DNA from: a virus
Length of the DNA: 64,000 bases
Strand: one strand, 5' to 3'
IMG/VR virus record: IMGVR_UViG_3300005532_000007
Location: 1-64,000 of that record
The translations under genes and the position numbers were made by a program. A model generated the notes under the pieces. That model searched no databases and was not told the origin of the DNA. It saw only the letters and a program-made list of their open reading frames with translations. Positions 2,687 through 28,798 of the stretch are shown here, one piece after another (position 1 is the stretch's first letter; every line of letters begins with the position of its first letter).

Positions 2687-2736
2687 CAAGCCCTGAGCCT
2701 TACTATGTCCCCTAAATAGTGAGGGAGGCTCAGCAA

Positions 2737-5425: not shown

Positions 5426-6295
5426 ATGAGTGATGTGTTGGTGCTCGGTTACCGGGCGGATGGTCGTGCGGTGCATTGGATCCGCGGCGGCGCGGAAGGC
5501 GACGGCGGCGCCGCGGCGGGTGACGGGAACGCCGGGGCGGGCGCGGGCGACGGGAACCCCGCCGGCAGCGGTGGCGCGTCCGGACAGGCAGGACAAGGCG
5601 CCCAGAGCGGCAGCGGAGCGCAGCGCGCCGGCGCGGGCGACGGCGAGGAGATCGAGTACAACGAGGAGAACTTCAAGAAGCTGATCGACGACCTGAACCG
5701 CGAGCGCACCGAACGCGCCGAGCTAGAGGCGAAGCACCAGCAGGAGAAGCACTCCCTCTCCAGCGAGGCGAAGAAGTACCGGCTGCGGGCGCGGTCGCTC
5801 GCTGACATGCTCGGCGACGAGGCCACGGGTAAGCCCGGGCCGAAGGCTGCGGCGAAGGGCGCCCAGGGCCAGCAGCAGGATGCGGGGCCGGATCCGGAGG
5901 TGGCGCGGCTCGCCGCGCAGCTGGAGGAGACACGGGCGCGCATGCTTGCCTCGGAGGCGCAGGCGGAGCTGCTGCGCGCGGAGGCGAACCCGAAGCATGT
6001 GCAGCGGCTCGCGCGGATGCTGGATCTGAACGCGGACGGCCGGGAGGATGTGGCGTCGCTCGCGGAGCAGATCGCGGAGCTGAAGGCGGATATGCCGGAG
6101 CTGTTCGGCACCCCCGCCGCAGCGACGGCCGGAGCGGGCAACGGCGCCGGGACGGGCGCACGGGTGCTGCGCGCCGCCCCGGCCGTGGCCGGGAGAGGCG
6201 CCGCAGGCCGGGGCGGCAACGAGGCGGCTCAACCGCCCAAGAGCGCCAACATCCTGGCTGATCGGCTGCTCGGCCGGAGCGAACCGTCCGTTTAG
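5426..6295 (+). CDS. Capsid scaffolding protein
   Basis: Gly-rich N-terminus, coiled coil (EAKKYRLR), IAELKADMPELF motif; upstream of the capsid gene. Confidence 0.85.
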   Translation: MSDVLVLGYRADGRAVHWIRGGAEGDGGAAAGDGNAGAGAGDGNPAGSGGASGQAGQGAQSGSGAQRAGAGDGEEIEYNEENFKKLIDDLNRERTERAELEAKHQQEKHSLSSEAKKYRLRARSLADMLGDEATGKPGPKAAAKGAQGQQQDAGPDPEVARLAAQLEETRARMLASEAQAELLRAEANPKHVQRLARMLDLNADGREDVASLAEQIAELKADMPELFGTPAAATAGAGNGAGTGARVLRAAPAVAGRGAAGRGGNEAAQPPKSANILADRLLGRSEPSV

Positions 6296-6516
6296 GCCGC
6301 CAGCCGCGCCATCACCGCACTGATCGCGGCATCCACCGAGGCAATCACGCGTCCCGCGCCACAGGTGCATCCCGTGGCGCGCGGACCCAACTCGTCTGCC
6401 TCGCCGTCCGGATCCTCGTCCAGCCCTACCGCGCCGCACAGGTCGTGATGCACCGCGGTGCGCGCATCCACGAGATCGCGCCACTCCTGCGCGAGACCCG
6501 GCGGCAGAACCTCCAC
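6292..6516 (-). CDS. Small antisense hypothetical protein with His/Cys motif
   Basis: 74-aa frame VEVLPPGLAQEW..HHDLC..GCTC filling the scaffold-capsid gap; protein-like composition. Confidence 0.45.
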   Translation of the reverse strand: MEVLPPGLAQEWRDLVDARTAVHHDLCGAVGLDEDPDGEADELGPRATGCTCGAGRVIASVDAAISAVMARLAA

Positions 6517-6630
6517 GCCACATGTGTACCGTGCCGCGCCGACACGCGCGAGAGGTGCGCTTGCCCACGCAGCCATATGTGGCGCAAACTGTGAGGCAGC
6601 ATCAGGATCAAGCCAGGTCGCTCCCGGCGA

Positions 6631-6753
6631 TCCCGGTGCTTTCGAAGCCCTGAGGGCTTTCGCACGACCCGTACGCGGCCGAGCCGCACCCGCAGAAAAC
6701 TCCCACCGCAGCGCACGGCGCCCTGTGGCGCGCCCCGTACGCCAGCACCGGGA
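6631..6753 (+). ncRNA. Candidate structured RNA in the capsid gene leader
   Basis: Perfect 10-bp closing stem TCCCGGTGCT/AGCACCGGGA enclosing three further stems. Confidence 0.5.
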
Positions 6754-6824
6754 CTTACTCCTGTGACGGCTTCCTGCCCCTGTGCCCACATCCGGGGGCG
6801 GCTTCGGAAAGCGATGCCCTCAAG

Positions 6825-7850
6825 ATGCGTATCCTCCTGCCCGGCGCGGTGCTGGGCTACCGCAGCAACGGCGCCCCCATCGTCCTGATCGCAGGTGGCG
6901 CGACCGACAACTTCGACTCCTGGATCCCCGTCGAGTACTCCGCGGACGTGATCCAGAAGGTGAAGCAGACCTCTGCCGTCGAGGCGTACGGCCAGGAGGT
7001 CATGATGTCCACCAACAGCCGCAGCACGCCGCGCGACTCGGGTGCGGACATCGACCACACCGCCAAGGGCGGCTCGTACAACGAGGACACCAACACCAAC
7101 GACCAGGTCACGCTCACCGCCCAGAAGTTCACCCGGGCGTTCCGCATCGCGGAAGAGGACCTGAATGACTCCCTGGCGAACGTGATCAACTCCAAGCAGA
7201 ACGCGTGGGGTACCGCGTACGCGAAGAAGTTCGACAACGCGTGCCTCGGCGTCACCGCGAGCAAGACCACGACCGGCATGGCGTACGACTCGCTGTACTA
7301 CCTGCTCACGCAGAACGACACCGCGACCGGGTACACCGCGAACAGCAACATCACCAACTCGGCCGCGTCGCCGTCGTACGCGGAGTACAACACCTCCCTG
7401 GGCCTGTACGAGGCCGGCGACTACTTCGACGAGGGCGAAACCCTCGTGATTGCGCACCCCGACTTCAAGCAGTCCCTGCGCGGCGTGCTCGACTCGCAGA
7501 ACCGCCCGATCTTCCAGGAGTCCACCGTCGGGTTCCCCGGCGGCGGCCAGGGCGCCACCCCCGCGCGGATCTTCGGCTACCCGATCAAGTGGAGCCTCGG
7601 TGCGCGCCTGTCGGCGACCCCGACGGCCAAGCCCACCGGCCACCCGATCATGGTGTTCTGCAACCCCATGTACATGCTCGTCGGCAAGCGCATCACCAAC
7701 CCGACGAACCCTCAGGGCACCCCGGAATTCCAGGTCATCCCGCCCAACATCAGCTTGTCGGACGAGGCGGTGCTCAAGGGCCGCGCCCGTCGCGCATTCG
7801 CCCCGGGCGTCGAGCAGGCGTTCTCCATCCTCGTCGACACCAGCCGCTGA
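6825..7850 (+). CDS. Major capsid protein (HK97 fold)
   Basis: WIPVEYSADVIQ, LTAQKF, IAEEDLNDS, DSQNRPIF, IFGYPI motifs. Confidence 0.93.
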   Translation: MRILLPGAVLGYRSNGAPIVLIAGGATDNFDSWIPVEYSADVIQKVKQTSAVEAYGQEVMMSTNSRSTPRDSGADIDHTAKGGSYNEDTNTNDQVTLTAQKFTRAFRIAEEDLNDSLANVINSKQNAWGTAYAKKFDNACLGVTASKTTTGMAYDSLYYLLTQNDTATGYTANSNITNSAASPSYAEYNTSLGLYEAGDYFDEGETLVIAHPDFKQSLRGVLDSQNRPIFQESTVGFPGGGQGATPARIFGYPIKWSLGARLSATPTAKPTGHPIMVFCNPMYMLVGKRITNPTNPQGTPEFQVIPPNISLSDEAVLKGRARRAFAPGVEQAFSILVDTSR

Positions 7851-9092: not shown

Positions 9093-12000
9093 ATGGTGTC
9101 CGTTTCCCTCGGCGCCTCATCCAAGCTGGACAAGTCCGGCGGCACCCTGACCGGGCCGCTGATCCTCGCGCGCGACCCGCAGCTGCCGCTGGAGGCCGCC
9201 ACCCGGCAGTGGGTGCTGGCCAGCGGCGGCGGGATCCCCCCGAGCACGGTCACGACCAAGGGCGACCTGATCGCCGCGACCGGGGCATCTGCGGTCACCC
9301 GGTTCGGGGTCGGCGCAGACGGCCAGGTGCTCACCGCGGCCTCTGGGCAGCCGACCGGACTGCAATGGGCGTCGCTGCCGTCGATCCCCGGCGCCGCCGC
9401 GAGCGTCGTGGCCGAAACCGGATACGGACAGTCCTCCGCGATCGGCGTGCTGACCAGTTACGCGCGCGAAGACCACACCCACGGCTCGCCGTTGCTGGCC
9501 TCCACCGCGCCGGCCACCACGTTGGGGATCGGGCAAGCCGCCGCGACCGGTACCGGCACAGTGCCGGCGCGCTCGGATCATGTCCACCCGCTCGCGGCCG
9601 CCGGCCTACCCGGCGGTTCCGCGGTCGGGGACACGGCCGCGACCGGCGCAGCGACCACGTTCGCCGCCAGCGACCACAGGCACGGACGCGAGAGCTTCGG
9701 CGCGGTCACCGCCCTCACCGCGTTCGGCACCGCGAGCAGCAACGGGATCAGCGCCTCGCCCGCGCGCGCGGACCACGTCCACGGCGCGCCCGCGCTGCCC
9801 GCCGCGAGCACCACCAGCGCGGGGATCGTGCAACTGGACGGCACCGCCACCGATATCGCCGCGCTCGGCGCTCAGGCGGCGGGCAGCGTCGGCAAGGCCG
9901 CGGACGCCGGGCATGTGCATCCGACCACTGGAGTGGTCCTGACCTCCAGCCTTCCGCTGTCGATCGCGCAGGGCGGCAGTGGCCAGACCACGCAGCAGGC
10001 AGCGATCAACGCGCTCACCGGAGCACAGACCGCGGGCCGCTATCTGCGCTCCGACGGCACGAACGCGGCACTGTCCACGATCCAGGCCGGTGATGTCCCG
10101 ACACTGAACCAGAACACCACGGGGACCGCTGCCGGACTGTCTGCGACGCTCGCCATCGGCTCCGGCGGCACGGGCCAGACCTCGCAACAGGCCGCGATCA
10201 ATGCCCTGACGGGCGTGCAGAGCGCCGGGCGCTACCTGAGGTCCGACGGCACGAATGCCGCTCTCGCGTCGATTCAGGCCGCCGATGTTCCGACGCTGAA
10301 TCAGAACACGACCGGAACGGCCGCTGGCCTGTCGGCGACCCTGGCCATCGCGTCCGGGGGAACCGGGCAGACCACGGCCACCGCCGCCGCCAACGCGCTC
10401 ACCAACACGGTATGGGTCAAACCGCCGTCCGGGGACAGCACCGGGGCCACCGACCAGGCGAACATCAACGCCGCGATCGCCGCGCTCCCCGCCGGCGGCG
10501 GCAGGGTGCAGCTGCAGGCCGGTACATACATCGTGCCCGCCCCGGCGTCCGCGTCCAGCGGCTGCATCAACATGAGCGTCAACAACTCCACGCTCGCGGG
10601 CATGGGCATCGGCGTCACCGTCATCCAGCTCGCCGCCGGGTCCACCGGCGTGACCGGGATCGTGCGCACGCCCTCGGGCGTGTCGAACTCGAAGATCACC
10701 TTCCGTGATTTCACGATCGACGGCAACAAGGCCGCGCAGACCGGCAACCCGACGATCATCGGGTTCTTCTGCGGCGTCACCCCCAACAGCGCGCTCACCG
10801 ACACGGACATCACGGTGGTCCGCGTCGAGGCGATGAACTGCGTCGGCTACGGCTTCGACCCGCACGAGCGCACCACGCGCCTGCTCATGATCGGCTGCGT
10901 CTCGCACGACAACGGATCGGACGGGGCGCACGACGGATTCACCCTCGACGCCCAGTACGACAGCACGCTGATCGGGTGCGTCGCCTACAACAACGGCCGC
11001 CACGGGTTCAACCTCGTCACGGCCAGCACCCGTGTGCGGCTGATCGGCTGCGAGTCCTACGGCAACACCGGCGCCGGGTACGTGATGCAGAACGGCGCGA
11101 AATACAACACGCTGACCGGCTGCACCGCCTACAACAACACCCTCGAGGGCGTCCTGATCAACGGAGTGGCGCAGAGCGGACAGCAGGACAACACCCCCGG
11201 CTCCGACAACACCGTCACCGGATGCACCATCGCCGGCAGCGGCACCCACGGCATCCACCTGGTCGGGGCGCTGCGGGCCACCGTCACCAGTAACACGATC
11301 CTGGACTCCTCGCAGACCACCACCAACACCTCCAACCAGATCTACCTGGACGAATCCGGGACCACGTACAGCACGTACTGCACGATCACCGGCAACAACC
11401 TCAACGTGACCGGTGTTGCGGCCACACCGAAATACGGGGTGCTGGAGAAGACCAGCAACGAGGACTTCAACCTCGTCACCAGCAACAAGAGCTACGGCGC
11501 GACGACCGGGCAGATCAGCCTCGCGGGCACCACCAGCAAAGCGATGGCCGCGCACAACGGCACCGTCGGCGAGCACCCGACCAGCTTCGCGTACAGCATG
11601 TTCGGGCCCTCCTACCACGGTCTGAGCGACTGGACCTACGACCCCGTCGGCATCGGGTCCACCACCAGCGCCATCACCAGCGGCACCGTGTATTTCGCCG
11701 CGGTCACCCCGCAAGCATCCGGCACCCTCACCAACATCAACCTGTACCTGGGCACCCAGGGCTCGACGTTGACCGCCGGGCAGTCGCTGGTCGGCCTGTA
11801 CTCCCTCTCCGGCGGGGTCGCCACCCTGCTCTCTTCCAGCGCCGACCAGTCCACGAACTGGTCCACCGCGGGCAACGCCAACAAGATCAGCACCGTCGCG
11901 TTGACCACCCCGCAGGCCGTCACCGCGGGCACCACCTACCTGGTCGGCATCCTGTCGGTGGGCACCACACCCCCGTCGTTCGGGCGCGGCGGCAGCTCCA

Positions 12001-12155
12001 CCGCCTCACCCCCCGACCTCGGCCTGTCCAAGAGCACCCCGCTGCGTTACGCGACGCACGTCACGCTCTCGCAGACCGCGCTGCCCGCGTCCGTGACCCT
12101 GAACACCGACGTCACCGCCACCAGCGCACTGTCCCACTGGATCGGGCTGAGCTGA
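9093..12155 (+). CDS. Fibre/spike protein with right-handed beta-helix (putative depolymerase)
   Basis: DHxH repeats, GGTG fibre repeats, DQANINAAI..GGRVQLQAGTY pectate-lyase-like start, Asn-ladder repeats. Confidence 0.85.
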   Translation: MVSVSLGASSKLDKSGGTLTGPLILARDPQLPLEAATRQWVLASGGGIPPSTVTTKGDLIAATGASAVTRFGVGADGQVLTAASGQPTGLQWASLPSIPGAAASVVAETGYGQSSAIGVLTSYAREDHTHGSPLLASTAPATTLGIGQAAATGTGTVPARSDHVHPLAAAGLPGGSAVGDTAATGAATTFAASDHRHGRESFGAVTALTAFGTASSNGISASPARADHVHGAPALPAASTTSAGIVQLDGTATDIAALGAQAAGSVGKAADAGHVHPTTGVVLTSSLPLSIAQGGSGQTTQQAAINALTGAQTAGRYLRSDGTNAALSTIQAGDVPTLNQNTTGTAAGLSATLAIGSGGTGQTSQQAAINALTGVQSAGRYLRSDGTNAALASIQAADVPTLNQNTTGTAAGLSATLAIASGGTGQTTATAAANALTNTVWVKPPSGDSTGATDQANINAAIAALPAGGGRVQLQAGTYIVPAPASASSGCINMSVNNSTLAGMGIGVTVIQLAAGSTGVTGIVRTPSGVSNSKITFRDFTIDGNKAAQTGNPTIIGFFCGVTPNSALTDTDITVVRVEAMNCVGYGFDPHERTTRLLMIGCVSHDNGSDGAHDGFTLDAQYDSTLIGCVAYNNGRHGFNLVTASTRVRLIGCESYGNTGAGYVMQNGAKYNTLTGCTAYNNTLEGVLINGVAQSGQQDNTPGSDNTVTGCTIAGSGTHGIHLVGALRATVTSNTILDSSQTTTNTSNQIYLDESGTTYSTYCTITGNNLNVTGVAATPKYGVLEKTSNEDFNLVTSNKSYGATTGQISLAGTTSKAMAAHNGTVGEHPTSFAYSMFGPSYHGLSDWTYDPVGIGSTTSAITSGTVYFAAVTPQASGTLTNINLYLGTQGSTLTAGQSLVGLYSLSGGVATLLSSSADQSTNWSTAGNANKISTVALTTPQAVTAGTTYLVGILSVGTTPPSFGRGGSSTASPPDLGLSKSTPLRYATHVTLSQTALPASVTLNTDVTATSALSHWIGLS
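9957..10380 (+). repeat. Tandem 192-bp (64-aa) duplication inside the fibre gene
   Basis: RYLRSDGTNAAL..DVPTLNQNTTGTAAGLSAT occurs twice; ccgacggcac at 10051 and 10243. Confidence 0.85.
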
Positions 12156-14248
12156 TGACCGCGACCGCATACGGATCCGGGGACAAGCTGCCGCTGACCG
12201 GCGGCACCCTCACCGGCACCCTCACCCTGACCGGCAACCCGGCGATGACGGTGGCCGCCGGCGCCGCCACCGGCAAGGTGTGGAGCAGCGACGCATCCGG
12301 CAACGGCACATGGGACTACACCGCCGGACCCTGGATCAACGTCAAAAACAGTGCGTACGGCGCGAAAGTCGACGGCACCACCGACGACACCGCCGCCGTC
12401 CAGGGCGCACTCAACGCCCTGGCCACCTTCGGCGGCGGCACCGTCGTCATCCCCGCCGGAACCTGCGTGCTGACCCCGACCGGCAGCCCCGCGCTCGCCC
12501 TGAGCATCCCGTCGAACACACGCCTGGCCGGCGCGGGCCGCACCGCCACGATCCTGAAGAAAGCCGCCAACGGCACCCTGATCAGCATGTCCGGCCCGAG
12601 TTCAGACCTGACCGGCGCCACGCACTGCCGGTTCTCCAGCCTGGAGAACCTCACCCTGCACGGCAACAGCCTGACCGGGCTGCTGGTACAGGCCTACTAC
12701 GCCGACAACCTGGTCTTCCGGGACGTGCGCTGGCTCAACAACGCGGATGTGTGCCTGGACACCGCGGAGTTCTGGGACAACCGGTTCTACAACTGCCTGT
12801 GGGATTCGTGCGGCAGCGCGAGCGCGAACGCGACCGTGCCGAATGTGTGGCTGCGCTCCTCGGCCGCCGCCTCAGGGTTCGGCTACTCCACCGACGTGCT
12901 CAACCAGGCCTATTTCCAAGGCTGCCGGTTCGAGAACTTCACCACCGGCGCGGTGCGGATCGAACGCGGACCGGGCGGCGGGATCAGCCAGCCCAACGGC
13001 GTCTACTTCGTCGAGTGCAAGTTCGAAACCAGCAGCCTCAACGGCTCCAGCCACCTGTTCGTCGACACCCCATGCCGGGATATCAACCTCAAGGCGTGCT
13101 ACTTCTACAGTGGCGGCTTCCACTCCGGGTACTCCACCGCGCAGGACGTCATCTCCTTCTCCCCCCAGTTCGGGACGCTGGACGACGTCCTGGTCTTCAA
13201 CGCCTCCGCCAGCGCCTGTGTCGCCAACGGCGTCACCGTCAACTCGGCGACCGCGAATCGCAACGTGGTGCTGCGCAACGTGCACGGCTCCTATCCGAGC
13301 GCCGCCCCGACGGGCGCGCACATCAGATTCGGGACGCAGACCGGCGGGATCCTGACCGACAACTGCACCACCGACAACGGTGCGCTCTACAGCGGCACCA
13401 CCCCGAACGCCCCGGCAGCGGGGGTCAGCAACACCCAGACGTTCACCGCGTCGGGCACCTGGACCAAACCGCCGGGCGCGGTCATGGTCACGGTGCTGCT
13501 GGTCGGCGGCGGAGGCGGCGGCGGGTCGGGCGCGGTGGAGGCCTCCGGGACGGTGTCCTCCGGCGGCGCGGGCGGCGGCGGCGGCGGATACAGCATCGTG
13601 ACCCTGCCCGCGAGCCTGCTCAATAGCACCGAGAGCGTCACCGTCGGCACCGGGGGCGCCGGCGGCAGCGCGGTCGGCACGGGCGCGAGCGTCGGCAATG
13701 CGGGCGGCAACGGCAACCCGAGCAGTTTCAAATCCACCAGCTTCGCCGTGGCCGGAGGCGGCGGGGGCGGCGCGGGCGGTTCGACCGGGTCCGCCAGCGG
13801 CGGTTTCTCCGGCGGCGGCAGCAGCAACGGCGCGCCGGGCGCGAACTCCTCCGGCAGCGGCGGCGCGGGCGCGACGAACTTCAACGCGCAGCAGGGCGGC
13901 GCGGGCGGCGGTTCGGGCGCCGGGCTGGCCACCACCCCGGCGAACGCGGCCGGCGGCGCGGGCGCGCAGGTCGCCGCGTCCGCGGGGGTGCTGGGGGGCG
14001 CCGCGGGCGCCTCCGGCGGCGGCGCGGGCGGCGCGGGGCAGAGCGCGGGCGCGAACTACCCGATCGCGGGCACGGGCGGCGGCGGCGGCGGGGCGAGCAC
14101 CACCGGCAACGGCGGCGCCGGAGGCGCGGGCGGCAACTATGGCGGCGCCGGAGGAGGCGGCGGTGGCGCGCTGACCACCCACACGTCCGGCGCGGGCGGC
14201 GCCGGAGCCGGCGGCATCGTCGTCGTCATCACCACGACGGCCACGTAA
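12155..14248 (+). CDS. Second fibre/spike protein: beta-helix plus glycine-rich C-terminal domain
   Basis: YGAKVDGTTDDTAAVQ..GGTVVIPAGT motif; FTASGTWTKP..VGGGGGGGSG Gly-rich domain. Confidence 0.85.
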   Translation: MTATAYGSGDKLPLTGGTLTGTLTLTGNPAMTVAAGAATGKVWSSDASGNGTWDYTAGPWINVKNSAYGAKVDGTTDDTAAVQGALNALATFGGGTVVIPAGTCVLTPTGSPALALSIPSNTRLAGAGRTATILKKAANGTLISMSGPSSDLTGATHCRFSSLENLTLHGNSLTGLLVQAYYADNLVFRDVRWLNNADVCLDTAEFWDNRFYNCLWDSCGSASANATVPNVWLRSSAAASGFGYSTDVLNQAYFQGCRFENFTTGAVRIERGPGGGISQPNGVYFVECKFETSSLNGSSHLFVDTPCRDINLKACYFYSGGFHSGYSTAQDVISFSPQFGTLDDVLVFNASASACVANGVTVNSATANRNVVLRNVHGSYPSAAPTGAHIRFGTQTGGILTDNCTTDNGALYSGTTPNAPAAGVSNTQTFTASGTWTKPPGAVMVTVLLVGGGGGGGSGAVEASGTVSSGGAGGGGGGYSIVTLPASLLNSTESVTVGTGGAGGSAVGTGASVGNAGGNGNPSSFKSTSFAVAGGGGGGAGGSTGSASGGFSGGGSSNGAPGANSSGSGGAGATNFNAQQGGAGGGSGAGLATTPANAAGGAGAQVAASAGVLGGAAGASGGGAGGAGQSAGANYPIAGTGGGGGGASTTGNGGAGGAGGNYGGAGGGGGGALTTHTSGAGGAGAGGIVVVITTTAT

Positions 14249-23502: not shown

Positions 23503-24636
23503 GTGACCGACTACCGGTATGTCTCCACCGACCTGGTCACGGGCAGGCTGCTGGCCGATGAGATCCCGCTGCACGTGCAGGGCTTCGCGCGGCAGATCGG
23601 GCAGGAGATGCCGCTGACCGGGTACCTGGATTTGACCGCGGGCAACGCGAAATACCTCGCGGCGTTGGAGACGCGCCGCACGATGCTGTGGGTGCTGGAG
23701 GACAACTACCCGGTGTGGTGCGGGGTGATCTGGGACGAGCCCACCCAGTCGATCCTGGACGGCAGATACCAGATCGGCGCGAAAACCCTCGAGTCGCTGT
23801 TCGCCCGCCGCCGCATCCGCGACAACCTGACCTACACCAACCTTGACTACTGCGACGTGTGGCGGGCGCTGCTGCGCTACGCCACCGACCCGGTGCTCAA
23901 GGGCAAACAGGCCGCGGTCGCCGGGCTGTCGATGCAGGACACACAGATCGGTTCGCAGGTCACCACCTCGTACGCGGCCGGGGACCTGAAGGACGTGGCC
24001 GGCGCCCTGGCCGACCTGGAGACCGCCGGGAACTTCGAGGCGACGTTCGAACCGATGCTGGACGGCTCCGGGAACCTCGCCGTCCTCGCCCGGCTCGCCG
24101 CCACCCTGGGGCAGCCGTATCAGCAGACCAACGTGCAGCTGGTGTTCCCCGGCAACCTGACCGACTACGGGTGGCCGCGCATGGGTTCGCAGGGCGCGAA
24201 CATGGTGATCGCGACCGCGCCGACCTCCGGGATGGGTACCTGGACCTCCGGGTACAGCGCCGGGTACGGCGTGGATGAGGCGGACCTGGCCGCCGGGTAT
24301 CCGCTGCTGGAGACCGCGGTGCAGTACAACGGGGCGGCGATCACCAGCCAGGCGCAGATCGACGCCTACGCCGACGGGTACCTGGGCATCACCGGGCACT
24401 CCCCGACGGTGCCGCCGATCGTGATTGACACCTCCTCGCCGTCGGCGCCGGCGATCCGGGCCCTGGGGCTCGGGGACCGGGCGGCGCTGCTGGCGACCTC
24501 GCCGCGGCACCCGGCGCGCGCGGACGGCTCCCCCGGGCTGCAGGCGGTGGTGCGCGTGATCGGCTGGCAGGTGGTGCCTCCGGACGACGGCCAGGACGGG
24601 AAGATCACGTTGACGGCGGGGGATGTGGCGGCATGA
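23503..24636 (+). CDS. Minor tail / baseplate hub protein
   Basis: DLVTG, PVWCGVIW, AGYPLLE, LGLGD motifs; synteny. Confidence 0.75.
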   Translation: MTDYRYVSTDLVTGRLLADEIPLHVQGFARQIGQEMPLTGYLDLTAGNAKYLAALETRRTMLWVLEDNYPVWCGVIWDEPTQSILDGRYQIGAKTLESLFARRRIRDNLTYTNLDYCDVWRALLRYATDPVLKGKQAAVAGLSMQDTQIGSQVTTSYAAGDLKDVAGALADLETAGNFEATFEPMLDGSGNLAVLARLAATLGQPYQQTNVQLVFPGNLTDYGWPRMGSQGANMVIATAPTSGMGTWTSGYSAGYGVDEADLAAGYPLLETAVQYNGAAITSQAQIDAYADGYLGITGHSPTVPPIVIDTSSPSAPAIRALGLGDRAALLATSPRHPARADGSPGLQAVVRVIGWQVVPPDDGQDGKITLTAGDVAA

Positions 24637-25463
24637 CGCAGTATCCGACGCCGGTCGAGCAGGCGCTGCCGAAACTGATCCGCGACCTGAGGGCGCGGGT
24701 GACATCGCTTGAGCAGCGCACCAACGCGCTCGGTTCGGCGGCCGGCACCGGGGCGCTCTCCCTGCCCGCGGTCACGGTGACGGGGCCGAACGGGACGCTG
24801 ACGCTGGCGCAGAACCCGTCGCTGCCTTCCCCCGGCACCAGCAGCCCGGCGCTGATCCTGAGCGACGGGCAGGGGTCCAGCGCGTACGCGCCGCAGCTGT
24901 ACAGCCACGAGGTCACTGCGGGCAGTAATCAGCCGTTCGAGGAGCTGGTGGCGGCGGGCCCGCAGTCCTCGGCGGACACGCAACTGTCCGCGGCGAGCAT
25001 GGTGCTGGACGGCGGGGGGACGGGGGTGAACGCGGCGCGCGGCGCGCTCAAGTGGGCGCAGAACGTGGGCGCCGCGGCGCTGGCCGCTGTGGGGTGGGAT
25101 CAGTGGGGTGTCACCCTGGCGCAGCCCGCGTCCGGGTCGGCCGCCTCCGGTGGGGCGCAGGTGACCGGGTCGGCGGTGCAGAACGATGTCGCGCCGTCCG
25201 GTGGTTCCAGCGCGAAGTTCGTGCGCATGGGCGTGTTGTCCGGGACGACGGACGGATCGGGGAACCTGGCGGTCACCGGCCTGGCGCTGGGTTTCACCCC
25301 GTCCGGGGTGGTGGTGATGCGCAACGGCGGCACAGGGCCGGCCGCGGTGGCGTGCAAGTCGGCGTCGGGCCTGTCGTCGTCGGGGTTCTCAACCTATTGG
25401 GACAACGCCGGGGTGGCTTACGCATCCAGTGCGGTCGCGGGCTGGTTCATCGTGTTCGGCTGA
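24633..25463 (+). CDS. Minor tail protein / tail fibre
   Basis: N-terminal LRARVTSLEQR coiled coil, C-terminal LGFTP..GF..WFIVFG domain. Confidence 0.7.
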   Translation: MTQYPTPVEQALPKLIRDLRARVTSLEQRTNALGSAAGTGALSLPAVTVTGPNGTLTLAQNPSLPSPGTSSPALILSDGQGSSAYAPQLYSHEVTAGSNQPFEELVAAGPQSSADTQLSAASMVLDGGGTGVNAARGALKWAQNVGAAALAAVGWDQWGVTLAQPASGSAASGGAQVTGSAVQNDVAPSGGSSAKFVRMGVLSGTTDGSGNLAVTGLALGFTPSGVVVMRNGGTGPAAVACKSASGLSSSGFSTYWDNAGVAYASSAVAGWFIVFG

Positions 25464-25879
25464 GCGGGCGGCACGGTGATGGCTTCCTCGGTCGCGGCGC
25501 CGTGGTGGATGCGCCAGGCGCGCAGCACCGGCGCGGCTGGGTCTTTGAGCGACACGATCAGGTAGAGGGTCTGCGGGTCGGCGGCGTGCAGGATGTCCAC
25601 GGCGGAGGGCCGCGCTTCGGTGGCGGTGTGGGAGTGCACGATCGCGAGGGGGTCTTCGCCGCGCTGGTCCATGTCCTGGTAGGCGGCGAGCTGTTGGGCG
25701 GGGTCGAACTGGTAGAGGTAGGGGCGTGCGGGCTCGTGGGCGGCGTTGCGCATGGGGATGTACCGGGTGGGGGTGTGGCTGCCGGGTGGTCCGGCGAGGA
25801 TGCCGCAGGCTTCGTCGGGTTTCGCGGCGAGGGTGTGCGCGAGTATTTCGTGGCGCAGGGCCTGGGTGAGGGTCAGCAC
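25418..25879 (-). CDS. JAB/MPN+ (M67) metallopeptidase, Mec/CysO-cysteine-peptidase-like
   Basis: PDEACGILAG and intact JAMM motif HSHTATEARPSAVD; YLIVSL..LRAWRI; GTG start overlaps the upstream stop. Confidence 0.92.
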   Translation of the reverse strand: MLTLTQALRHEILAHTLAAKPDEACGILAGPPGSHTPTRYIPMRNAAHEPARPYLYQFDPAQQLAAYQDMDQRGEDPLAIVHSHTATEARPSAVDILHAADPQTLYLIVSLKDPAAPVLRAWRIHHGAATEEAITVPPAQPNTMNQPATALDA

Positions 25880-26112
25880 GGTGTTTCCGGGTCCGGGTAG
25901 ACGATGCGGGTCGCGCCGCCGTGTCCGTTGATCGCGATTAGGTCGTCGAGGCTGTCCCAGTGGACGGTGGATGGCCGGGCGCCTCGCCAGCGGACGGTGA
26001 TGGTGCCGTCGGGCCATTGCACGCCGTCGGCGACGTGCCCGGTGCCGGAGATCCCGCTCACGTCCACGTCCCGCTCGAGGCGGAACAACCGCGGCGCTGG
26101 TCCCCCGCTCAT
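25873..26112 (-). CDS. Conserved small actinophage protein
   Basis: RDVDVSGISGTG.VADGVQW.DG..RW..GHGG.T motif. Confidence 0.75.
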   Translation of the reverse strand: MSGGPAPRLFRLERDVDVSGISGTGHVADGVQWPDGTITVRWRGARPSTVHWDSLDDLIAINGHGGATRIVYPDPETPC

Positions 26113-26693
26113 CGGGCGGTCGCGTGTTCGTCAAGGAATCGGGCGATCACTCGGTTGTGTCGGGCGTCCTGCAGAGCGTTGTGGTGCCCGTCGATCTGCG
26201 GTGGCATGTCGTCATCGCTTAGTCCGAGGCGCGCGGCTTCCTGCTTGAGGTCGTTGGTCCACATCGGGATGCCGTCGGGCAGGTCGATCATCCGGCCGAA
26301 CAGCTGCGCTAGTACCACGTGGTCGTAGGCGCCGTACCAGGCCCACAGCTGCGGGCTCGGGTGGCTAAGGATGAATCTGCTCACGTCGTGGGCGATCTGC
26401 GCGCGGGTCGCCACCTCGTCGGCGCCCCAGTTGAACAGGCGCTTGACGTGTCGGTACGCGGATGCGCCTTCGCTCATGGACGCGAGGAGCATCATCCGGG
26501 CATCGCCGCGCACCTGGGGCAGCGACGGCCACACGTTGGCCATCAGCCAGTCGTTCTTGGCGAAGGCCTTGCGGTCGAACTCAGAGCTGACGGCGTAGTA
26601 CTCGGCACCGGTTTCGGCGACGATGCCGATCGAGACGAGGTCGATCGTCTTGCCGTCTTCGATGAACTCGCAGTCGTAGAAGAGCCTTGTCAT
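26109..26693 (-). CDS. 3'-5' exoribonuclease, RNase AS/DUF5051-like (DEDDh)
   Basis: FYDCEFIEDGKTIDLVSIG, LWAWYGAYDHV, HNALQDAR. Confidence 0.9.
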   Translation of the reverse strand: MTRLFYDCEFIEDGKTIDLVSIGIVAETGAEYYAVSSEFDRKAFAKNDWLMANVWPSLPQVRGDARMMLLASMSEGASAYRHVKRLFNWGADEVATRAQIAHDVSRFILSHPSPQLWAWYGAYDHVVLAQLFGRMIDLPDGIPMWTNDLKQEAARLGLSDDDMPPQIDGHHNALQDARHNRVIARFLDEHATAR

Positions 26694-26929
26694 TGTTCGC
26701 GCTCGATCCTGCTCGGGCCGATCCGCTGGAACGTGACGACCAGATCGCGATGCCGCCGCGGCTCCAGCGGGCCGCGCACCACGAGCTTCGTGCCGTCGTC
26801 CGCCACCGACTCCACAAACGCCACATGCGACTGGCCGTCACCGGCCTGCACGTGCATCAGATCCCCTAGCCGCGGCGGCACATGCCCGCACGCGGTCTGG
26901 ACTGGCCGGTCGATCACAAGAGTGTCCAT
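26690..26929 (-). CDS. Hypothetical protein
   Basis: Coupled ORF in the leftward block. Confidence 0.6.
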   Translation of the reverse strand: MDTLVIDRPVQTACGHVPPRLGDLMHVQAGDGQSHVAFVESVADDGTKLVVRGPLEPRRHRDLVVTFQRIGPSRIEREQ

Positions 26930-26933
26930 GCCG

Positions 26934-27134
26934 CTAGTCGCCGATCCGATCGTGGAGCACGTGCTTGCCGTCGCTGTCCTTGCCGACGCTGACCCAGGCG
27001 TCGCCGACGCCGAGCTCCAGGCGCATATTCGGGGAGATCCGCACTCCGGTCTTCGCCTCGACCTCGTCCAGCAGCTCCAGCGCTTGGGCGAGTTGCCGCA
27101 ACTCCTGCGGGCTCGCCACGATCGGCATGCTCAC
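26934..27134 (-). CDS. Hypothetical protein
   Basis: Coupled ORF (MPIVASPQELRQLA). Confidence 0.6.
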   Translation of the reverse strand: MSMPIVASPQELRQLAQALELLDEVEAKTGVRISPNMRLELGVGDAWVSVGKDSDGKHVLHDRIGD

Positions 27135-27454
27135 GGCTGCTCCGGTACGTGCGGCTGCTGCGGGTGCTCCAGCGCGTACGCGATCCGCGCGTCCTGGATC
27201 GCGTCCCAGTGCTGCGAGACCCACGCCCCGAACCCGGGATCCTCCAGGGACGGTGTGGCCTGCTGCGCGAGCGCCGCCAACCCCTCCAGCTCGCCGCGCA
27301 CCGACCCCAGATCCGCGTTCAACACCGCGACCGCCTGCTGAGACTCCGCCAGCGCGCTCTGCGCGAACGCCAAATCGTGCGTAACCTCCGCGAGCCTGCT
27401 GCGATACCACTCCACGACGTTCGCCGCGTTCGCCCGCACCTGCTGCCCGCTCAT
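27131..27454 (-). CDS. Coiled-coil hypothetical protein
   Basis: ATG overlaps the upstream stop; GGGAGG RBS. Confidence 0.65.
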   Translation of the reverse strand: MSGQQVRANAANVVEWYRSRLAEVTHDLAFAQSALAESQQAVAVLNADLGSVRGELEGLAALAQQATPSLEDPGFGAWVSQHWDAIQDARIAYALEHPQQPHVPEQP

Positions 27455-27945
27455 GCCCGGCCCCTCCCCTGCGTGCTGTTCATCGCCGCCATGGCCTGCG
27501 CCGCGGCCTGCCCCATCGCCGTGCGCCGCCGCGCATCCTGCGCGAGGCTCAGGATCGCCCGATTCCAGTCCCGGACGCGGTGCTGCGGGATCAGGATCCC
27601 GGTGACGCCGTCCACGATCAGGCCGCGCAGCGGCCACCGCGCGGTCGCGATGACGGGAACGCCGGCGCGCATGACCGCGGTGGCGCGTTTCGCCAGAGCC
27701 GCGCCGTCCACCGGGGGCCGGATCAACGGGGCGAGCATGATGTGGAAGTCGCGTGCGGCACCGGGCGGGCTGATGCGCCAGCGGCCTTCGAGCCGCCACA
27801 GCGGTTCGTCGGCGGCGCCGGGGTAGCCGATGGTGTGCACGCTGATCGCGGGTTCGGCGAGGGCGGCGCGCAGGATCTCGTCCTGGATGGAGGTCAGGTG
27901 CGGGGCGTCGGCGGGGGCGCCTTCCCAGCCGACGATCACGTCCAC
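27451..27945 (-). CDS. Glycosyltransferase family 4-like C-terminal domain only
   Basis: MRAGVPVIAT..IVDGVTGILI..RRRTAMGQAA; N-terminal domain and E-x7-E motif absent. Confidence 0.6.
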   Translation of the reverse strand: MDVIVGWEGAPADAPHLTSIQDEILRAALAEPAISVHTIGYPGAADEPLWRLEGRWRISPPGAARDFHIMLAPLIRPPVDGAALAKRATAVMRAGVPVIATARWPLRGLIVDGVTGILIPQHRVRDWNRAILSLAQDARRRTAMGQAAAQAMAAMNSTQGRGRA

Positions 27946-28024
27946 GCGTTGCCTTTCCGGTGGTCTCGGCCCGAGATGCTGAGTGATTGTAACCTTTCCG
28001 TGGGTTAAGCATCAGGAGGCCGTC

Positions 28025-28318
28025 ATGGCGTGGCTCGCGCACATCCTCGGCATCGACAACGTCTCCGGGGCCTGGTACGCGTTCTGGTCGGGCTTCGGGT
28101 CCGACCTCGGTGAGGTCGCGATCGTCGGGAGCCTGTTGGCGGCGTACCGGCGGCATACCTGCCATGTCGATAGCCCGCGGTTCTGCTGGCGCCCCGGGGT
28201 GCATCCCGTGGAGGGAACGCCGTACAAGGTGTGCAAGCGGCATCATCCGCGCGTTCCGGACGCCGTATCCGCGCATCACATCGCTCAGGCACATCAACAG
28301 GCGAGCGCTGATTCCTAG
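28025..28318 (+). CDS. Small membrane protein with Cys/His motif
   Basis: WYAFWSGFGSD, TM segment, HTCH..CWR..CKRHHP; AGGAGG RBS. Confidence 0.7.
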   Translation: MAWLAHILGIDNVSGAWYAFWSGFGSDLGEVAIVGSLLAAYRRHTCHVDSPRFCWRPGVHPVEGTPYKVCKRHHPRVPDAVSAHHIAQAHQQASADS

Positions 28319-28396
28319 CGGCTGGGTGCAGGAACACGAGCGGCGAGTACCATCGCCTCAGCACTAGTTACAGTCCCTCACAATCAGGAGCACCGC

Positions 28397-28798
28397 ATGT
28401 CTCTGGGTGAACTTCTCGCGGACGCTAAGGACGCGATCTCCCGGCTGCTCACGCACGCCGACCCGCAGGTGACCGCGATCGCCCAGGAGGTGCACGACAA
28501 GGTCGGCGCCGCGCTGGAGCAGGCCGGTGCGGACGCCGCGGCGCTGGGGCACGAGGCGGTCGCGGACGCCGAGCAGCTCGGGCGCGAGGGTTCCGCCGCG
28601 GTCGCGCCGCTCGTGACGGAGGCCGAGCACGACGTGCAGGAGCTCGGCGGCGAGGCCGTGCATGACGCGGAGAGCATCGCGCAGTCGGCGGCCTCACCGC
28701 AGCAGGCCGCGGCCACCGAGCCCGCCCCCGCGCCGACCCCGGAGGCGCCGGCCGAGGGCGCCGCTCCCGAGGCCGAGCCGTCCGCGCCGACCGCATAA
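28397..28798 (+). CDS. Acidic helical hypothetical protein
   Basis: AGGAG RBS, amphipathic repeats. Confidence 0.7.
   Translation: MSLGELLADAKDAISRLLTHADPQVTAIAQEVHDKVGAALEQAGADAAALGHEAVADAEQLGREGSAAVAPLVTEAEHDVQELGGEAVHDAESIAQSAASPQQAAATEPAPAPTPEAPAEGAAPEAEPSAPTA

What the first reader, a model, noticed from the sequence alone, without database searches (positions are those of the whole stretch)
25418..25879. Phage-encoded Mec-like JAB peptidase: candidate protease for the GG leaders, or an anti-ubiquitin-defence factor
Seen: intact E..HSH-x7-S-x2-D JAMM motif in a stand-alone gene with no ubiquitin-like, E1, E2 or cysteine-synthase neighbour. Established: JAB enzymes cut after a C-terminal Gly-Gly; mycobacterial Mec releases Cys from CysO-GG; bacterial Bil and CBASS type II defences use ubiquitin-like conjugation. 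Inference: the clearest Ubl-like GG strands I can see in the window are the scaffold and capsid leaders, suggesting a JAB-dependent head-maturation system. Alternatively it strips host conjugates from phage proteins.
Basis: partly seen in the sequence, partly recalled or inferred. Interest (0 to 1): 0.78.

Follow-up and report, generated by a model that had tools for sequence, protein, structure and literature searches.

The report
Phage JAB protease for head leaders
An intact zinc protease gene of the ubiquitin-tail-cutting (JAB) type in a soil actinobacterial phage most likely clips a shared Gly-Gly-ended tag off the phage's scaffold and capsid proteins; that would be a new enzyme class for virus head maturation, but nobody has shown the cut.

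Summary
Window 25418-25879 (minus strand) encodes a 153-aa Prok-JAB protein with an intact E..HSH-x7-S-x2-D motif. The 88-kb phage has no ThiS/CysO, ThiF, Prok-E2, cysteine-synthase or classical prohead-protease gene.

Its cellular relatives (43-50% identical) are actinobacterial Mec genes, and 76 of 80 are followed directly by cysO. The phage JABs sit on long branches outside that cluster.

Every phage record with this JAB that could be assessed also has one capsid family. Its capsid and scaffold start with the same hairpin-like leader ending Gly-Gly, then Ala. Leaderless capsid homologues begin exactly at that Ala. In 6 of 22 JAB-bearing records the JAB lies between the scaffold and capsid genes, in three separate branches of the capsid tree.

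A controlled complex prediction scored 0.87 (best control 0.02). Its interface includes the capsid leader's Gly-Gly-Ala and the catalytic residues.

Against: about half of the leader-bearing complete phages lack any JAB, so host Mec would have to serve them. Some leaders end Gly-Ala. The JAB evolves much faster than its neighbours. No cleavage data exist for this lineage.

Best reading: leader peptidase for head maturation (about 0.5). The anti-defence reading gained no support. This scan has made the same kind of finding on at least 10 other genomes.

The parts
25418..25879 (-). JAB/JAMM metallopeptidase gene (153 aa; E23, H82, S83, H84, S92, D95). It is the last gene of a short leftward gene island between the tail genes and the lysis region.
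   Evidence: Translation; PF14464 at 86.9 bits; invariant motif; 49% identical to an Actinomadura Mec that is followed by cysO.
25873..26112 (-). 79-aa gene directly upstream of the JAB. Its stop overlaps the JAB start by 7 nt, so translational coupling is likely. Function unknown.
   Evidence: phrog_7499 at E 1.9e-22, no Pfam match. A 59%-identical homologue lies directly upstream of the JAB in L008. It is absent beside the JAB of G001/G003. The single-sequence fold was poor, pLDDT 49.9.
26109..26693 (-). Rv2179c/RNase AS-like 3'-5' exonuclease gene in the same leftward gene run. This is context and not shown to be linked to the JAB.
   Evidence: PF16473 at E 2.9e-14; phrog_2259 at E 6.6e-49; NCBIfam RNase_AS at 159.4 bits, below its cut-off of 200.
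24633..25463 (+). Last tail-module gene. It converges on the JAB gene and overlaps its 3' end by 46 nt.
   Evidence: ORF list; 78-79% identical homologues converge on the JAB in G001 and G003.
5426..6295 (+). Scaffolding protein gene (289 aa), a proposed substrate.
   Evidence: Lies between the MuF-like gene and the capsid gene. Weak Phage_scaffold PF06810 match, 24.7 bits against a cut-off of 35. The L241 counterpart matches at 58.2 bits.
5426..5491 (+). Scaffold leader, residues 1-22, ending Gly21-Gly22. Ala23 follows, then a Gly/acidic-rich stretch.
   Evidence: Scaffold leaders of the same style, followed by an acidic run, occur in relatives.
6825..7850 (+). Major capsid protein gene (341 aa), a proposed substrate.
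   Evidence: phrog_10 major head protein at E 8.1e-20; homologues annotated as major capsid protein in 19 phage records.
6825..6899 (+). Capsid leader, residues 1-25, ending Gly24-Gly25. The proposed cut is before Ala26 (6900-6902).
   Evidence: G16, G24 and A26 are invariant in 9 capsids. Leaderless homologues start Met-Ala at the position of Gly25-Ala26. The leader is modelled as two short strands at low confidence. The predicted interface includes leader residues 19-30 and the JAB catalytic residues.

Best explanation
The gene encodes an active-looking Mec-derived JAMM zinc peptidase. Its most likely job is to remove the N-terminal leader shared by this phage's scaffolding protein (cut after Gly22) and major capsid protein (cut after Gly25) during head assembly.

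Proposed mechanism:
- The leader forms a small hairpin. Its second strand and Gly-Gly end resemble the last strand and tail of the host sulfur carrier CysO.
- That strand pairs with the JAB strand at residues 54-58.
- This lays the Gly-Gly-Ala bond on the zinc site (E23, H82, H84, S92, D95).
- Hydrolysis leaves a capsid protein that starts at the same Ala as the naturally leaderless homologues.
- Phages of the lineage without a JAB would depend on the host's own Mec. This parallels staphylococcal phage 80alpha, which depends on the host protease Prp.

Shown here: the gene and its motif; its Mec ancestry; the shared leader and its boundary; the lineage-wide and positional association; a predicted complex that passes its controls.

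Inferred: that the peptide is cut, where it is cut, that host Mec can substitute, and when the gene is expressed.
For: 1. Enzyme. PF14464 at 86.9 bits. The JAMM motif is invariant in 23 relatives and in 20 of 20 phage copies.

2. Ancestry. The best 80 genomic relatives (43-50% identical) are all Actinomycetota. 79 of 80 loci hold a CysO-like ORF ending in Gly-Gly, and in 76 it lies directly downstream on the same strand. The parent enzyme therefore cuts after a Gly-Gly tail.

3. No other candidate. The 88-kb genome has no match at E<=1 to Peptidase_S78, ClpP, S49 or Prp. The head module is portal, MuF-like, scaffold, capsid, and annotated relatives show no protease there.

4. Leader boundary. 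Of 10 printed capsid N-termini, 7 carry the leader and 3 (KimJongPhill, OscarSo, Wyvern) begin Met-Ala-Arg-Asn-Thr exactly where the others have Gly-Ala. L099 and L102 do the same. G24 and A26 are invariant in 9 capsids.

5. Association.
- A tblastn of the JAB against 50,697 phage records hits one record, Dryad. Dryad is one of the 19 records holding this capsid family.
- The ten best IMG/VR JAB hits (37-47% identical) come from phages with homologous TerL, portal or capsid genes. 8 of 9 such records searched hold the capsid gene, matched from residue 5-6 on; the ninth is a 15-kb fragment.
- In the capsid-first samples, none of the 5 leaderless records at 87% or more completeness has a JAB, against 9 of 19 leader-bearing ones.

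6. Position. In 6 of 22 JAB-bearing records the JAB lies between the scaffold and capsid genes on the same strand (G009, G011, G022, G024, G025, G026). In L241 the stops and starts abut or overlap through scaffold, a 176-aa ORF and the JAB. On the capsid tree this placement needs 3 independent changes. In 3 more records the JAB lies just upstream of TerL.

7. Complex prediction. JAB residues 1-140 with zinc and capsid residues 1-50 scored 0.88, 0.87 and 0.87; the best of 3 controls scored 0.02. That mark was reached by 58 of 80 solved complexes and by 2 of 110 mismatched pairs. The runs share at least 88% of contacts, and the partner's pLDDT is 61-63. The interface joins JAB residues 23, 25, 54-58, 82, 84-87 and 92-95 to leader residues 19-30.

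8. Precedents.
- 80alpha capsid and scaffold share an N-terminal motif with ribosomal protein L27 and are cut by host Prp (PMC5744158, passages).
- A Deinococcus JAMM is reported to cleave a MoaD-MoaE fusion (PMC8832034, abstract only).
- In mycobacteriophage Patience the N-terminal-most peptides of virion protein gp21 start at residue 35, after a Gly (PMC4324244, passages). I found that residues 33-34 are Gly-Gly within a motif also present at capsid residues 13-19. The head-module 'protease' gp19 is a Prok-JAB at 39.3 bits.
Against: 1. Many complete leader-bearing phages have no PF14464 match at E<=0.01: Rooney, phiRKBJ001, Gibson, Wentworth and Yara, and G020, G028, G029, G030 and G031. The phage JAB is therefore dispensable, unless the host supplies the activity, which is untested.

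2. In this window the gene is 17.6 kb from the capsid gene, on the other strand, in a leftward gene run with an exonuclease and a glycosyltransferase fragment. Its timing is unknown, and no promoter or terminator was found.

3. Some JAB-bearing phages have leaders that do not end Gly-Gly. G010 has Ala-Gly-Ala and Thr-Gly-Ala. G025 has Gly-Ala-Ala. Several scaffolds have Gly-Ala. Known JAMM enzymes prefer Gly-Gly (recalled).

4. The JAB diverges much faster than its surroundings. It is 47% identical in G001/G003, where the flanking tail genes are 78-82% and the capsid 86% identical and the leaders are nearly the same. It is 85.6% identical in DNA between G008 and G018, whose flanks are 97.6-99.2% identical. 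That pattern suits an arms-race or freely swapped accessory gene.

5. The scaffold-capsid gap is a general landing site for extra genes: a TROVE gene in L008, an 86-aa gene in Yara and L248, and a 116-aa gene in L211. Position alone is therefore weak evidence.

6. Association with the lineage could reflect descent only. The phylogenetically independent comparison has 2-3 pairs and is not significant.

7. The complex pass may be the model's memory of solved JAMM-ubiquitin-tail complexes. It used my own alignments and a riding zinc ion, unlike the calibration.

8. In Patience the paper places the capsid cut between residues 82 and 83, which are Gln and Ile, and not at its Gly-Gly motif.

9. In 80alpha, cleavage itself is dispensable. 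A cut, if it occurs here, need not matter.
Confidence: 0.5

Rival explanations
1. Counter-defence enzyme. The phage JAB strips host ubiquitin-like conjugates (Bil-type tagging of tail proteins, or Cap2-type priming of cGAS-like enzymes), or cuts a host Ubl precursor, and so disarms a conjugation-based defence.
For: - The gene stands alone with no Ubl, E1 or E2 in the genome, so a substrate encoded elsewhere is needed.
- It is patchy: at least 7 gains or losses on the capsid tree.
- It moves about the genome: 7 changes of position class.
- It evolves much faster than its flanks, as anti-defence genes often do.
- In this window it converges on the last tail gene. The Bil system tags a tail-tip protein (10.1101/2023.09.04.556158, abstract and passages).
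Against: - No match to any of 5027 PADLOC defence models at E<=0.01. Its relatives are housekeeping Mec genes beside cysO.
- It is confined to one capsid lineage and has not spread among actinophages: 1 of 50,697 records.
- It sits between the scaffold and capsid genes in 6 of 22 records.
- The Bil preprint's passages name no phage-encoded deubiquitinase ('phage-encoded' occurs 0 times). My searches listed no paper on a phage JAB counter-defence (listing only).
Confidence: 0.15
2. Metabolic helper. The phage keeps a Mec-like enzyme to act on the host's CysO, MoaD or ThiS carriers, releasing cysteine or maturing carrier precursors, and so boosts sulfur metabolism during infection.
For: It is 43-50% identical to cellular Mec, and 76 of 80 of those genes are followed by cysO. 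The active site is intact. JGI labels many metagenomic relatives as CysO-cysteine hydrolase.
Against: - The phage has no cysO, cysM or thiF.
- The phage copies lie on long branches (1.1-5.9 changes per column, against a median of 0.09) outside the tight, taxonomy-following cellular cluster. This points to a changed substrate or constraint.
- A metabolic gene would not be expected to track one capsid type, nor to sit between the scaffold and capsid genes.
- It scores 77.9 bits against NCBIfam's desampylase model, below the cut-off of 130.
Confidence: 0.12
3. The JAB binds the leader but does not act as a maturation protease. It could be an assembly chaperone or timer that holds the scaffold and capsid N-termini. 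Alternatively it is an unrelated accessory gene that merely lands in permissive gaps of the late operon.
For: The 80alpha work shows that the scaffold's N-terminal sequence is needed for assembly while its cleavage is not. The scaffold-capsid gap takes up other unrelated genes. The JAB is dispensable in about half of the lineage.
Against: All catalytic residues are kept in 20 of 20 phage copies despite fast divergence elsewhere, which argues for catalysis. The predicted interface includes the Gly-Gly-Ala residues and the catalytic residues themselves.
Confidence: 0.1
4. Tail-assembly JAB, like the MPN domain of lambda tail-tip protein K.
For: Weak PHROG matches to 'tail' families: phrog_30 at 50.2 bits over profile positions 288-386 of 544, and phrog_2635 at 45.7 bits. 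The gene abuts the tail module.
Against: It is on the opposite strand to the tail genes. It is 153 aa with no second (NlpC/P60) domain. It lies far from the tail genes in most relatives. Its closest relatives are Mec.
Confidence: 0.03

Closest known systems
Actinobacterial Mec (JAMM hydrolase of the mec-cysO-cysM cysteine pathway; the biochemistry is recalled from work on M. tuberculosis, not read here)
   Same: Same fold family and motif. 43-50% identity, and 49% to an Actinomadura copy followed by cysO. The parent enzyme cuts after the Gly-Gly tail of a small carrier, and CysO tails in 76 of 80 loci end Ala-Gly-Gly or similar.
   Different: The phage has no cysO, cysM or thiF. The phage copies lie outside the cellular cluster on long branches. 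The window's clade has a 3-residue insertion just before the strand predicted to bind the leader. The proposed substrate is an N-terminal leader on a large protein, not a beta-grasp carrier.
Staphylococcus phage 80alpha: capsid and scaffold leaders cut by host protease Prp (PMC5744158, passages read; PMC9405229, passages read)
   Same: Scaffold and capsid, otherwise unrelated, share an N-terminal motif that copies a host protein's processing site. The phage has no classical prohead protease. The enzyme has a housekeeping role in the host.
   Different: Prp is a cysteine protease that cuts Phe/Ala and copies ribosomal protein L27. Here the enzyme would be a JAMM zinc protease cutting after Gly-Gly and copying CysO, and about half of the phages carry their own copy. 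Cleavage is proven for 80alpha and not here.
Mycobacteriophage Patience gp19 'protease' with gp21 and gp23 (PMC4324244, passages read)
   Same: A Prok-JAB gene (39.3 bits) sits in the head module. Virion protein gp21 has a non-tryptic N-terminus at residue 35, right after Gly-Gly, and the capsid carries the same motif near its start.
   Different: It belongs to a different capsid family and to a JAB too distant for tblastn at 1e-5. The paper reports the capsid cut at residues 82/83, not at the Gly-Gly motif. In the passages I read, the paper does not name the enzyme family or link it to Gly-Gly.
Prokaryotic JAMMs that cut linear Ubl fusions or conjugates: Deinococcus DRJAMM on MoaD-MoaE (PMC8832034, abstract); Pyrococcus JAMM1 (PDB 5ld9/5lda); unnamed solved relatives 2kks and 2kcq
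   Same: Profile matches: 2kks at E 4.2e-37, 2kcq at 4.6e-25, JAMM1 at 7.3e-13. The chemistry is the same, and there is precedent for cutting an ordinary peptide bond after Gly-Gly.
   Different: Those substrates are full beta-grasp domains. Here the recognised element would be a hairpin of about 20 residues.
Defence-linked JAB enzymes (Cap3 of type II CBASS, BilC of Bil)
   Same: JAB fold; they cut after a Ubl-like C-terminus (listing and passages).
   Different: No PADLOC model matches. There is no E1, E2 or Ubl in the genome. The gene is phage-borne.

Membership tests
JAMM/MPN+ metallopeptidases (Pfam Prok-JAB PF14464) | Profile match above the curated cut-off | tested here: met
   86.9 bits against a cut-off of 25, E 1.1e-24, residues 6-124.
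JAMM/MPN+ metallopeptidases (Pfam Prok-JAB PF14464) | E-x(n)-H-S/T-H-x7-S-x2-D zinc and catalytic motif | tested here: met
   E23, H82, S83, H84, S92 and D95 are invariant in 23 relatives and in 20 of 20 phage copies.
JAMM/MPN+ metallopeptidases (Pfam Prok-JAB PF14464) | Zinc-dependent peptidase or isopeptidase activity | not testable with these tools
   Needs an enzyme assay.
Mec (CysO-cysteine hydrolase of the mec-cysO-cysM operon) | Adjacent cysO (ThiS-family carrier) and cysM | tested here: not met
   No ThiS, ThiF or PALP match at E<=1 in the 88 kb, and no CysO by tblastn. Cellular relatives: 76 of 80 have cysO directly downstream.
Mec (CysO-cysteine hydrolase of the mec-cysO-cysM operon) | Placement inside the cellular Mec cluster on a tree | tested here: not met
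   On a quick tree of 100 rows, the 80 cellular rows (with 3 unlabelled metagenome proteins) form one tight cluster that follows taxonomy (support 83). The phage rows lie outside it on long branches, and the window groups with 6 metagenome proteins (support 90).
Mec (CysO-cysteine hydrolase of the mec-cysO-cysM operon) | High sequence similarity to bona fide Mec | tested here: met
   43-50% identity over 124-152 residues; 49%, E 8e-44, to the Actinomadura copy.
Archaeal desampylase (NCBIfam NF041370 equivalog) | Score above the curated cut-off | tested here: not met
   77.9 bits against a cut-off of 130.
Prohead (capsid maturation) proteases, as a functional class | Homology to a known prohead protease family (S78, ClpP/S14, S49, Prp) | tested here: not met
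   The JAB matches none of them. The genome has no match at E<=1 to PF04586, PF00574, PF01343 or PF04327.
Prohead (capsid maturation) proteases, as a functional class | Gene placed in the head module between portal and capsid | tested here: inconclusive
   Not so in this window (17.6 kb away, opposite strand). It is so in 6 of 22 JAB-bearing relatives, and the gene lies just upstream of TerL in 3 more.
Prohead (capsid maturation) proteases, as a functional class | Head proteins carry a common cleavage motif and are cut there | tested here: inconclusive
   The shared motif and its boundary are shown. The cut itself was not tested, and I found no proteomic data for this lineage (listing only).
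Defence-associated JAB (Cap3/BilC) | Match to defence-system models; E1/E2/Ubl neighbours | tested here: not met
   PADLOC gives 0 families at E<=0.01. No ThiF or Prok-E2.
Lambda K-like tail-tip JAB (phrog_30) | JAB fused to an NlpC/P60 domain, inside the tail operon | tested here: not met
   153 aa with a single domain. Only profile positions 288-386 of 544 match. The gene is on the opposite strand to the tail genes.

The most novel reading that the evidence does not exclude
A whole lineage of actinobacterial phages matures its heads with Mec-type JAMM zinc peptidases. Scaffold and capsid carry a short hairpin leader that copies the tail of the host sulfur carrier CysO. Either the host's Mec (in phages without the gene) or a fast-evolving phage copy (as here) can then clip it off after Gly-Gly. 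This would be a metalloprotease class of prohead protease. It would also be the second known case, after 80alpha/Prp/L27, of capsid maturation by mimicry of a host housekeeping substrate.
Probability: 0.45. Interest if true: 0.85.

Novelty: new variant of a known kind. Interest (0 to 1): 0.75.

Why it matters
All established prohead proteases are serine or cysteine enzymes (recalled). My searches listed no paper linking a JAMM enzyme to prohead maturation, within a library that lacks most subscription journals.

If the reading holds, three things follow:
- A deubiquitinase-type zinc protease joins the set of head-maturation enzymes.
- It explains why unrelated scaffold and capsid proteins share a leader in SPP1-like head modules that have 'no protease'.
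- It generalises the 80alpha principle, that phages borrow a host housekeeping protease by copying its substrate, to Actinobacteria and to the ubiquitin-like world.

It is directly testable, because cultured relatives exist both with the gene (Dryad) and without it (Rooney, Gibson, Yara), on Streptomyces hosts that can be manipulated genetically. It would also correct routine annotation of these genes as 'metalloprotease' or 'hypothetical'.

Tried and rejected
- Neighbour as hidden Ubl. The 79-aa upstream protein does not end in Gly-Gly. Its internal Gly-Gly is Asp-Gly in the L008 homologue. It has no Pfam match, and its single-sequence fold was too poor to read (pLDDT 49.9). It is dropped as a partner, but only weakly.
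- Context of the closest relatives. I used the search for related loci, the genome search and the fetch from genomes instead.
- A single-protein scan of viral contigs found nothing. The alignment-based scan did.
- The promoter and terminator scan of 25200-28500 found nothing, so operon limits and timing remain unknown.
- The phylogenetically independent test of leader against JAB has only 2-3 usable pairs. They point the same way but are not significant.
- The capsid fold (9-row alignment) was mediocre: pLDDT 59.7, with the leader at 50-57. It only hints at a two-strand leader.
- Literature searches listed no paper on a phage JAB as counter-defence or as head protease, and no N-terminal proteomics for this Streptomyces phage group. 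Many hits for 'JAMM' were the word 'jammed'. Supplementary tables of the Patience paper were not open to me and may hold the peptide evidence.
- Rows left out of the capsid tree: G016 and G017 (near-copies of G012/G015); G013 (no capsid in the fragment); JAB-negative records under 87% complete (G002, G004-G007, G021, G033-G035, G038-G049); and INPHARED records that I did not fetch (PHTowN, Lizz, ShakeNBake, Zuko, Isperia, Mulchroom, MiniFlayer).
- One search was given 33 of the 80 loci, the ones on longer contigs. The other 47 were not searched; eleven of them lie on records already searched, and the rest were not searched for the JAB at all.
- Resemblance of the leader to the CysO tail is by eye only, with no statistics; see below.
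Full report
WHAT IS THERE

The window is the first 64 kb of an 88,172-bp IMG/VR virus record with direct terminal repeats. G+C is about 70%. The plus strand carries a structural module:
- large terminase, 755-2686
- portal, 2719-4371
- a 347-aa MuF-position gene, 4368-5411
- scaffold, 5426-6295
- major capsid protein, 6825-7850
- tail genes up to 25463

The finding's ORF lies on the minus strand at 25418-25879 and gives 153 aa from a GTG start. It overlaps the 3' end of the last tail gene by 46 nt in convergent orientation. It overlaps the stop of the upstream 79-aa gene by 7 nt. It is the last gene of a short leftward gene run. That run also holds an Rv2179c/RNase AS-like exonuclease (26109-26693) and a glycosyltransferase fragment (27451-27945).

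The protein matches Prok-JAB PF14464 at 86.9 bits against a cut-off of 25. E23, H82, S83, H84, S92 and D95 form the JAMM motif with the stated spacing. They are invariant in 23 relatives and in 20 of 20 phage copies.

The gene truly stands alone. The whole genome has no match at E<=1 to ThiS, ThiF, PALP, Prok-E2_A or Prok-E2_B. It also has no match to the prohead protease families S78, ClpP, S49 or Prp.

WHERE THE ENZYME COMES FROM

The best 80 genomic relatives are all Actinomycetota and are 43-50% identical. In 79 of 80 loci a CysO-like ORF is present, and in 76 it lies directly downstream on the same strand. Where printed, it ends in Ala-Gly-Gly. The cellular relatives are therefore Mec of the mec-cysO operon.

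On a quick tree of 100 rows these cellular genes (with 3 unlabelled metagenome proteins) form a tight cluster that follows taxonomy. The phage copies lie outside it on long branches. The protein is Mec-derived, but it fails two Mec membership tests: it has no cysO neighbour and it is not inside the cellular cluster. It is below the cut-off for NCBIfam's desampylase and matches no PADLOC defence model. The closest solved relatives are 2kks, 2kcq and Pyrococcus JAMM1.

THE LEADERS

A loose scan of the genome found it, in a coding frame, only there.

The motif is a lineage trait. It is on the capsid of Dryad, Rooney, phiRKBJ001, Gibson, Wentworth and Yara. It is also on the capsids, and usually the scaffolds, of the IMG/VR relatives. 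In the scaffolds an acidic run follows it.

Five homologous capsids lack the leader: KimJongPhill, OscarSo, Wyvern, L099 and L102. They begin Met-Ala at exactly the position of the second Gly and the invariant Ala. This marks a clean domain boundary. It does not prove a cut.

THE LINK BETWEEN JAB AND HEAD GENES

1. Searching with the JAB.
- One of 50,697 phage records matches (Dryad), and Dryad belongs to the 19 records holding this capsid family.
- The ten best IMG/VR JAB hits come from phages with homologous terminase, portal or capsid genes.
- 8 of 9 such records searched hold the leader-type capsid; the ninth is a 15-kb fragment.

2. Searching with the capsid. There are 304 IMG/VR relatives, of which the best 80 were kept. 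I searched 33 of those 80 for PF14464, and 9 have it. Together with the records, the capsid-first records at 87% or more completeness divide as follows:
- Leader-bearing with JAB (9): G001, G003, G009, G018, G019, G023, G025, G026, Dryad.
- Leader-bearing without JAB (10): G020, G028, G029, G030, G031, Rooney, phiRKBJ001, Gibson, Wentworth, Yara.
- Leaderless (5): G032, G036, KimJongPhill, OscarSo, Wyvern. None has a JAB.

3. Position. Of 22 JAB-bearing records with a located capsid gene:
- In 6 the JAB lies between scaffold and capsid on the same strand (G009, G011, G022, G024, G025, G026).
- In L241 the order is scaffold (PF06810, 58.2 bits), a 176-aa ORF, JAB (74.6 bits), capsid. The stops and starts abut or overlap up to the JAB, and a gap of about 90 nt precedes the capsid gene.
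- In 3 the JAB lies just upstream of the large terminase.
- The window, G001, G003 and the G012 group have it converging on the tail genes.

On a capsid tree of 35 rows, the placement in front of the capsid gene needs 3 independent changes. JAB presence needs at least 7 changes and the leader 3. The independent-pairs test has too few pairs to be significant.

PREDICTED COMPLEX

I submitted JAB residues 1-140 (alignment A1), a zinc ion, and capsid residues 1-50 (alignment A2).
- Scores were 0.88, 0.87 and 0.87, and the best of three controls was 0.02.
- That mark was reached by 58 of 80 solved complexes and by 2 of 110 mismatched pairs.
- The runs agree in at least 88% of contacts, and the partner's pLDDT is 61-63.
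- Leader residues 19-25 pair with JAB residues 55-58.
- The interface includes E23, H82, H84, S92-D95 and leader residues 24-26.

The tool warns that such a pass may reflect likeness to solved JAMM-ubiquitin-tail complexes. It also warns that my own alignments and the riding zinc ion depart from its calibration. I take the result as support that the leader looks like a JAMM substrate tail, and not as proof of binding.

PRECEDENTS

In staphylococcal phage 80alpha, capsid and scaffold share an N-terminal motif with ribosomal protein L27. Both are cut by the host protease Prp. The cut itself is dispensable, but the scaffold's N-terminus is essential (PMC5744158, passages; PMC9405229, passages).

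A Deinococcus JAMM is reported to cleave a MoaD-MoaE fusion (PMC8832034, abstract only).

Earlier notes of this scan pointed to mycobacteriophage Patience, and I checked this myself.
[quoted passage not shown] It lists gp19 as 'protease' in the head module (PMC4324244, passages).
- gp19 is a Prok-JAB at 39.3 bits.
- gp21 residues 33-34 are Gly-Gly, and the same motif stands at capsid residues 13-19.
- The paper, however, places the capsid cut at residues 82/83.

WHAT SPEAKS AGAINST THE LEADER-PEPTIDASE READING

- Ten complete or near-complete leader-bearing phages have no JAB. The phage gene is therefore an optional copy at best, and the host-Mec substitution is pure inference.
- In this window the gene lies outside the head module, and its timing is unknown.
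- Some JAB-bearing phages have Gly-Ala, Ala-Gly-Ala or Thr-Gly-Ala in place of Gly-Gly.
- The JAB diverges far faster than its flanks. It is 47% identical where the tail genes are 78-82% and the capsid 86%. It is 85.6% where the flanks are 97.6-99.2%. This pattern suits host-interaction genes.
- The scaffold-capsid gap also takes up unrelated genes.

VERDICT

The best explanation is a Mec-derived JAMM peptidase that removes the shared leader from scaffold and capsid (about 0.5). The rivals are:
- counter-defence deconjugase, 0.15
- Mec-like metabolic helper, 0.12
- leader binder or unrelated accessory gene, 0.10
- lambda K-like tail role, 0.03

It is a new variant of a known kind: head maturation by leader removal, with 80alpha/Prp as the model, carried out by an enzyme class not described for this role in the papers I could search. 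The same theme has been reported by this scan on at least 10 other genomes. This window adds a case in which the JAB lies outside the head module. The case is tied to the others through relatives, a tree and a controlled complex prediction.

Noticed in passing
L007 14172-14185, L008 11160-11173, L200 2387-2400, L214 2386-2399, L234 2389-2402 and 20 more loci: An exact 14-base motif lies roughly 40-110 nt upstream of the capsid start in 25 of the 279 loci held (several are overlapping cuts of the same records). It spans several capsid subgroups and reads as a conserved in-frame peptide. It is absent from the window's own 530-bp scaffold-capsid gap. It could be a late promoter, a leader RNA or another regulatory element.
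   Followed up: partly
window 6295-6825: A 530-bp gap between the scaffold and capsid genes holds a possible minus-strand ORF (6292-6789, Cys/His-rich C-terminal half). It occupies the same slot where relatives carry the JAB or other inserted genes.
   Followed up: no
L241 1417-1947 and L238 1417-1947: A 176-aa ORF sits between the scaffold and the JAB, and its end overlaps the JAB start. It has no Pfam match at E<=0.01. It may be a second component of the head-module JAB cassette.
   Followed up: partly
L008 8720-10363: A 547-aa TROVE-domain (Ro60-like) protein gene (PF05731, E 6.2e-17) lies between the JAB and the capsid gene, in a 7-kb island of extra genes inside the head module of an 80.6-kb provirus record.
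   Followed up: partly
window 25873-26112; L008 7336-8007: The 79-aa phrog_7499 protein lies directly upstream of the JAB in the window. In L008 it is the N-terminal part of a 223-aa protein (59% identical). It is missing beside the JAB of G001/G003. Function unknown.
   Followed up: partly
L273 2650-3012 and L274 371-730 against window 25418-25879; L275 1905-2254 against L007 7523-7872: At conserved positions, the JAB is much more diverged than its flanks: 47% protein identity against 78-82% for the adjacent tail genes, and 85.6% DNA identity against 97.6-99.2% for the flanks. This suggests either a hot spot of divergence or allele swapping.
   Followed up: partly
window 9093-12155 and 12155-14248: Two very large ORFs (1020 and 697 aa) lie between the head and tail genes. 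They have repeated Gly/Thr/Ala-rich N-terminal segments, and the first has no PHROG match. L238, L239 and L241 have similar genes after the capsid gene. They may be head fibres or decoration proteins with an enzyme domain.
   Followed up: no
window 26109-26693: The Rv2179c/RNase AS-like exonuclease scores 159.4 bits, below NCBIfam's equivalog cut-off of 200. Only a 110-130-nt stretch of this gene (window about 26224-26356) is 88-92% identical in DNA to genes annotated 'DnaQ-like' in six Gordonia phage records.
   Followed up: no
L007 8315-8620; L010 2261-2536; L211 1851-2201: Small genes of about 91-116 aa recur near the JAB (L007, L010) or in the scaffold-capsid gap (L211). The L007 and L010 products look alike by eye. 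The L007 and L211 ones have no Pfam match; the L010 one was not scanned.
   Followed up: no
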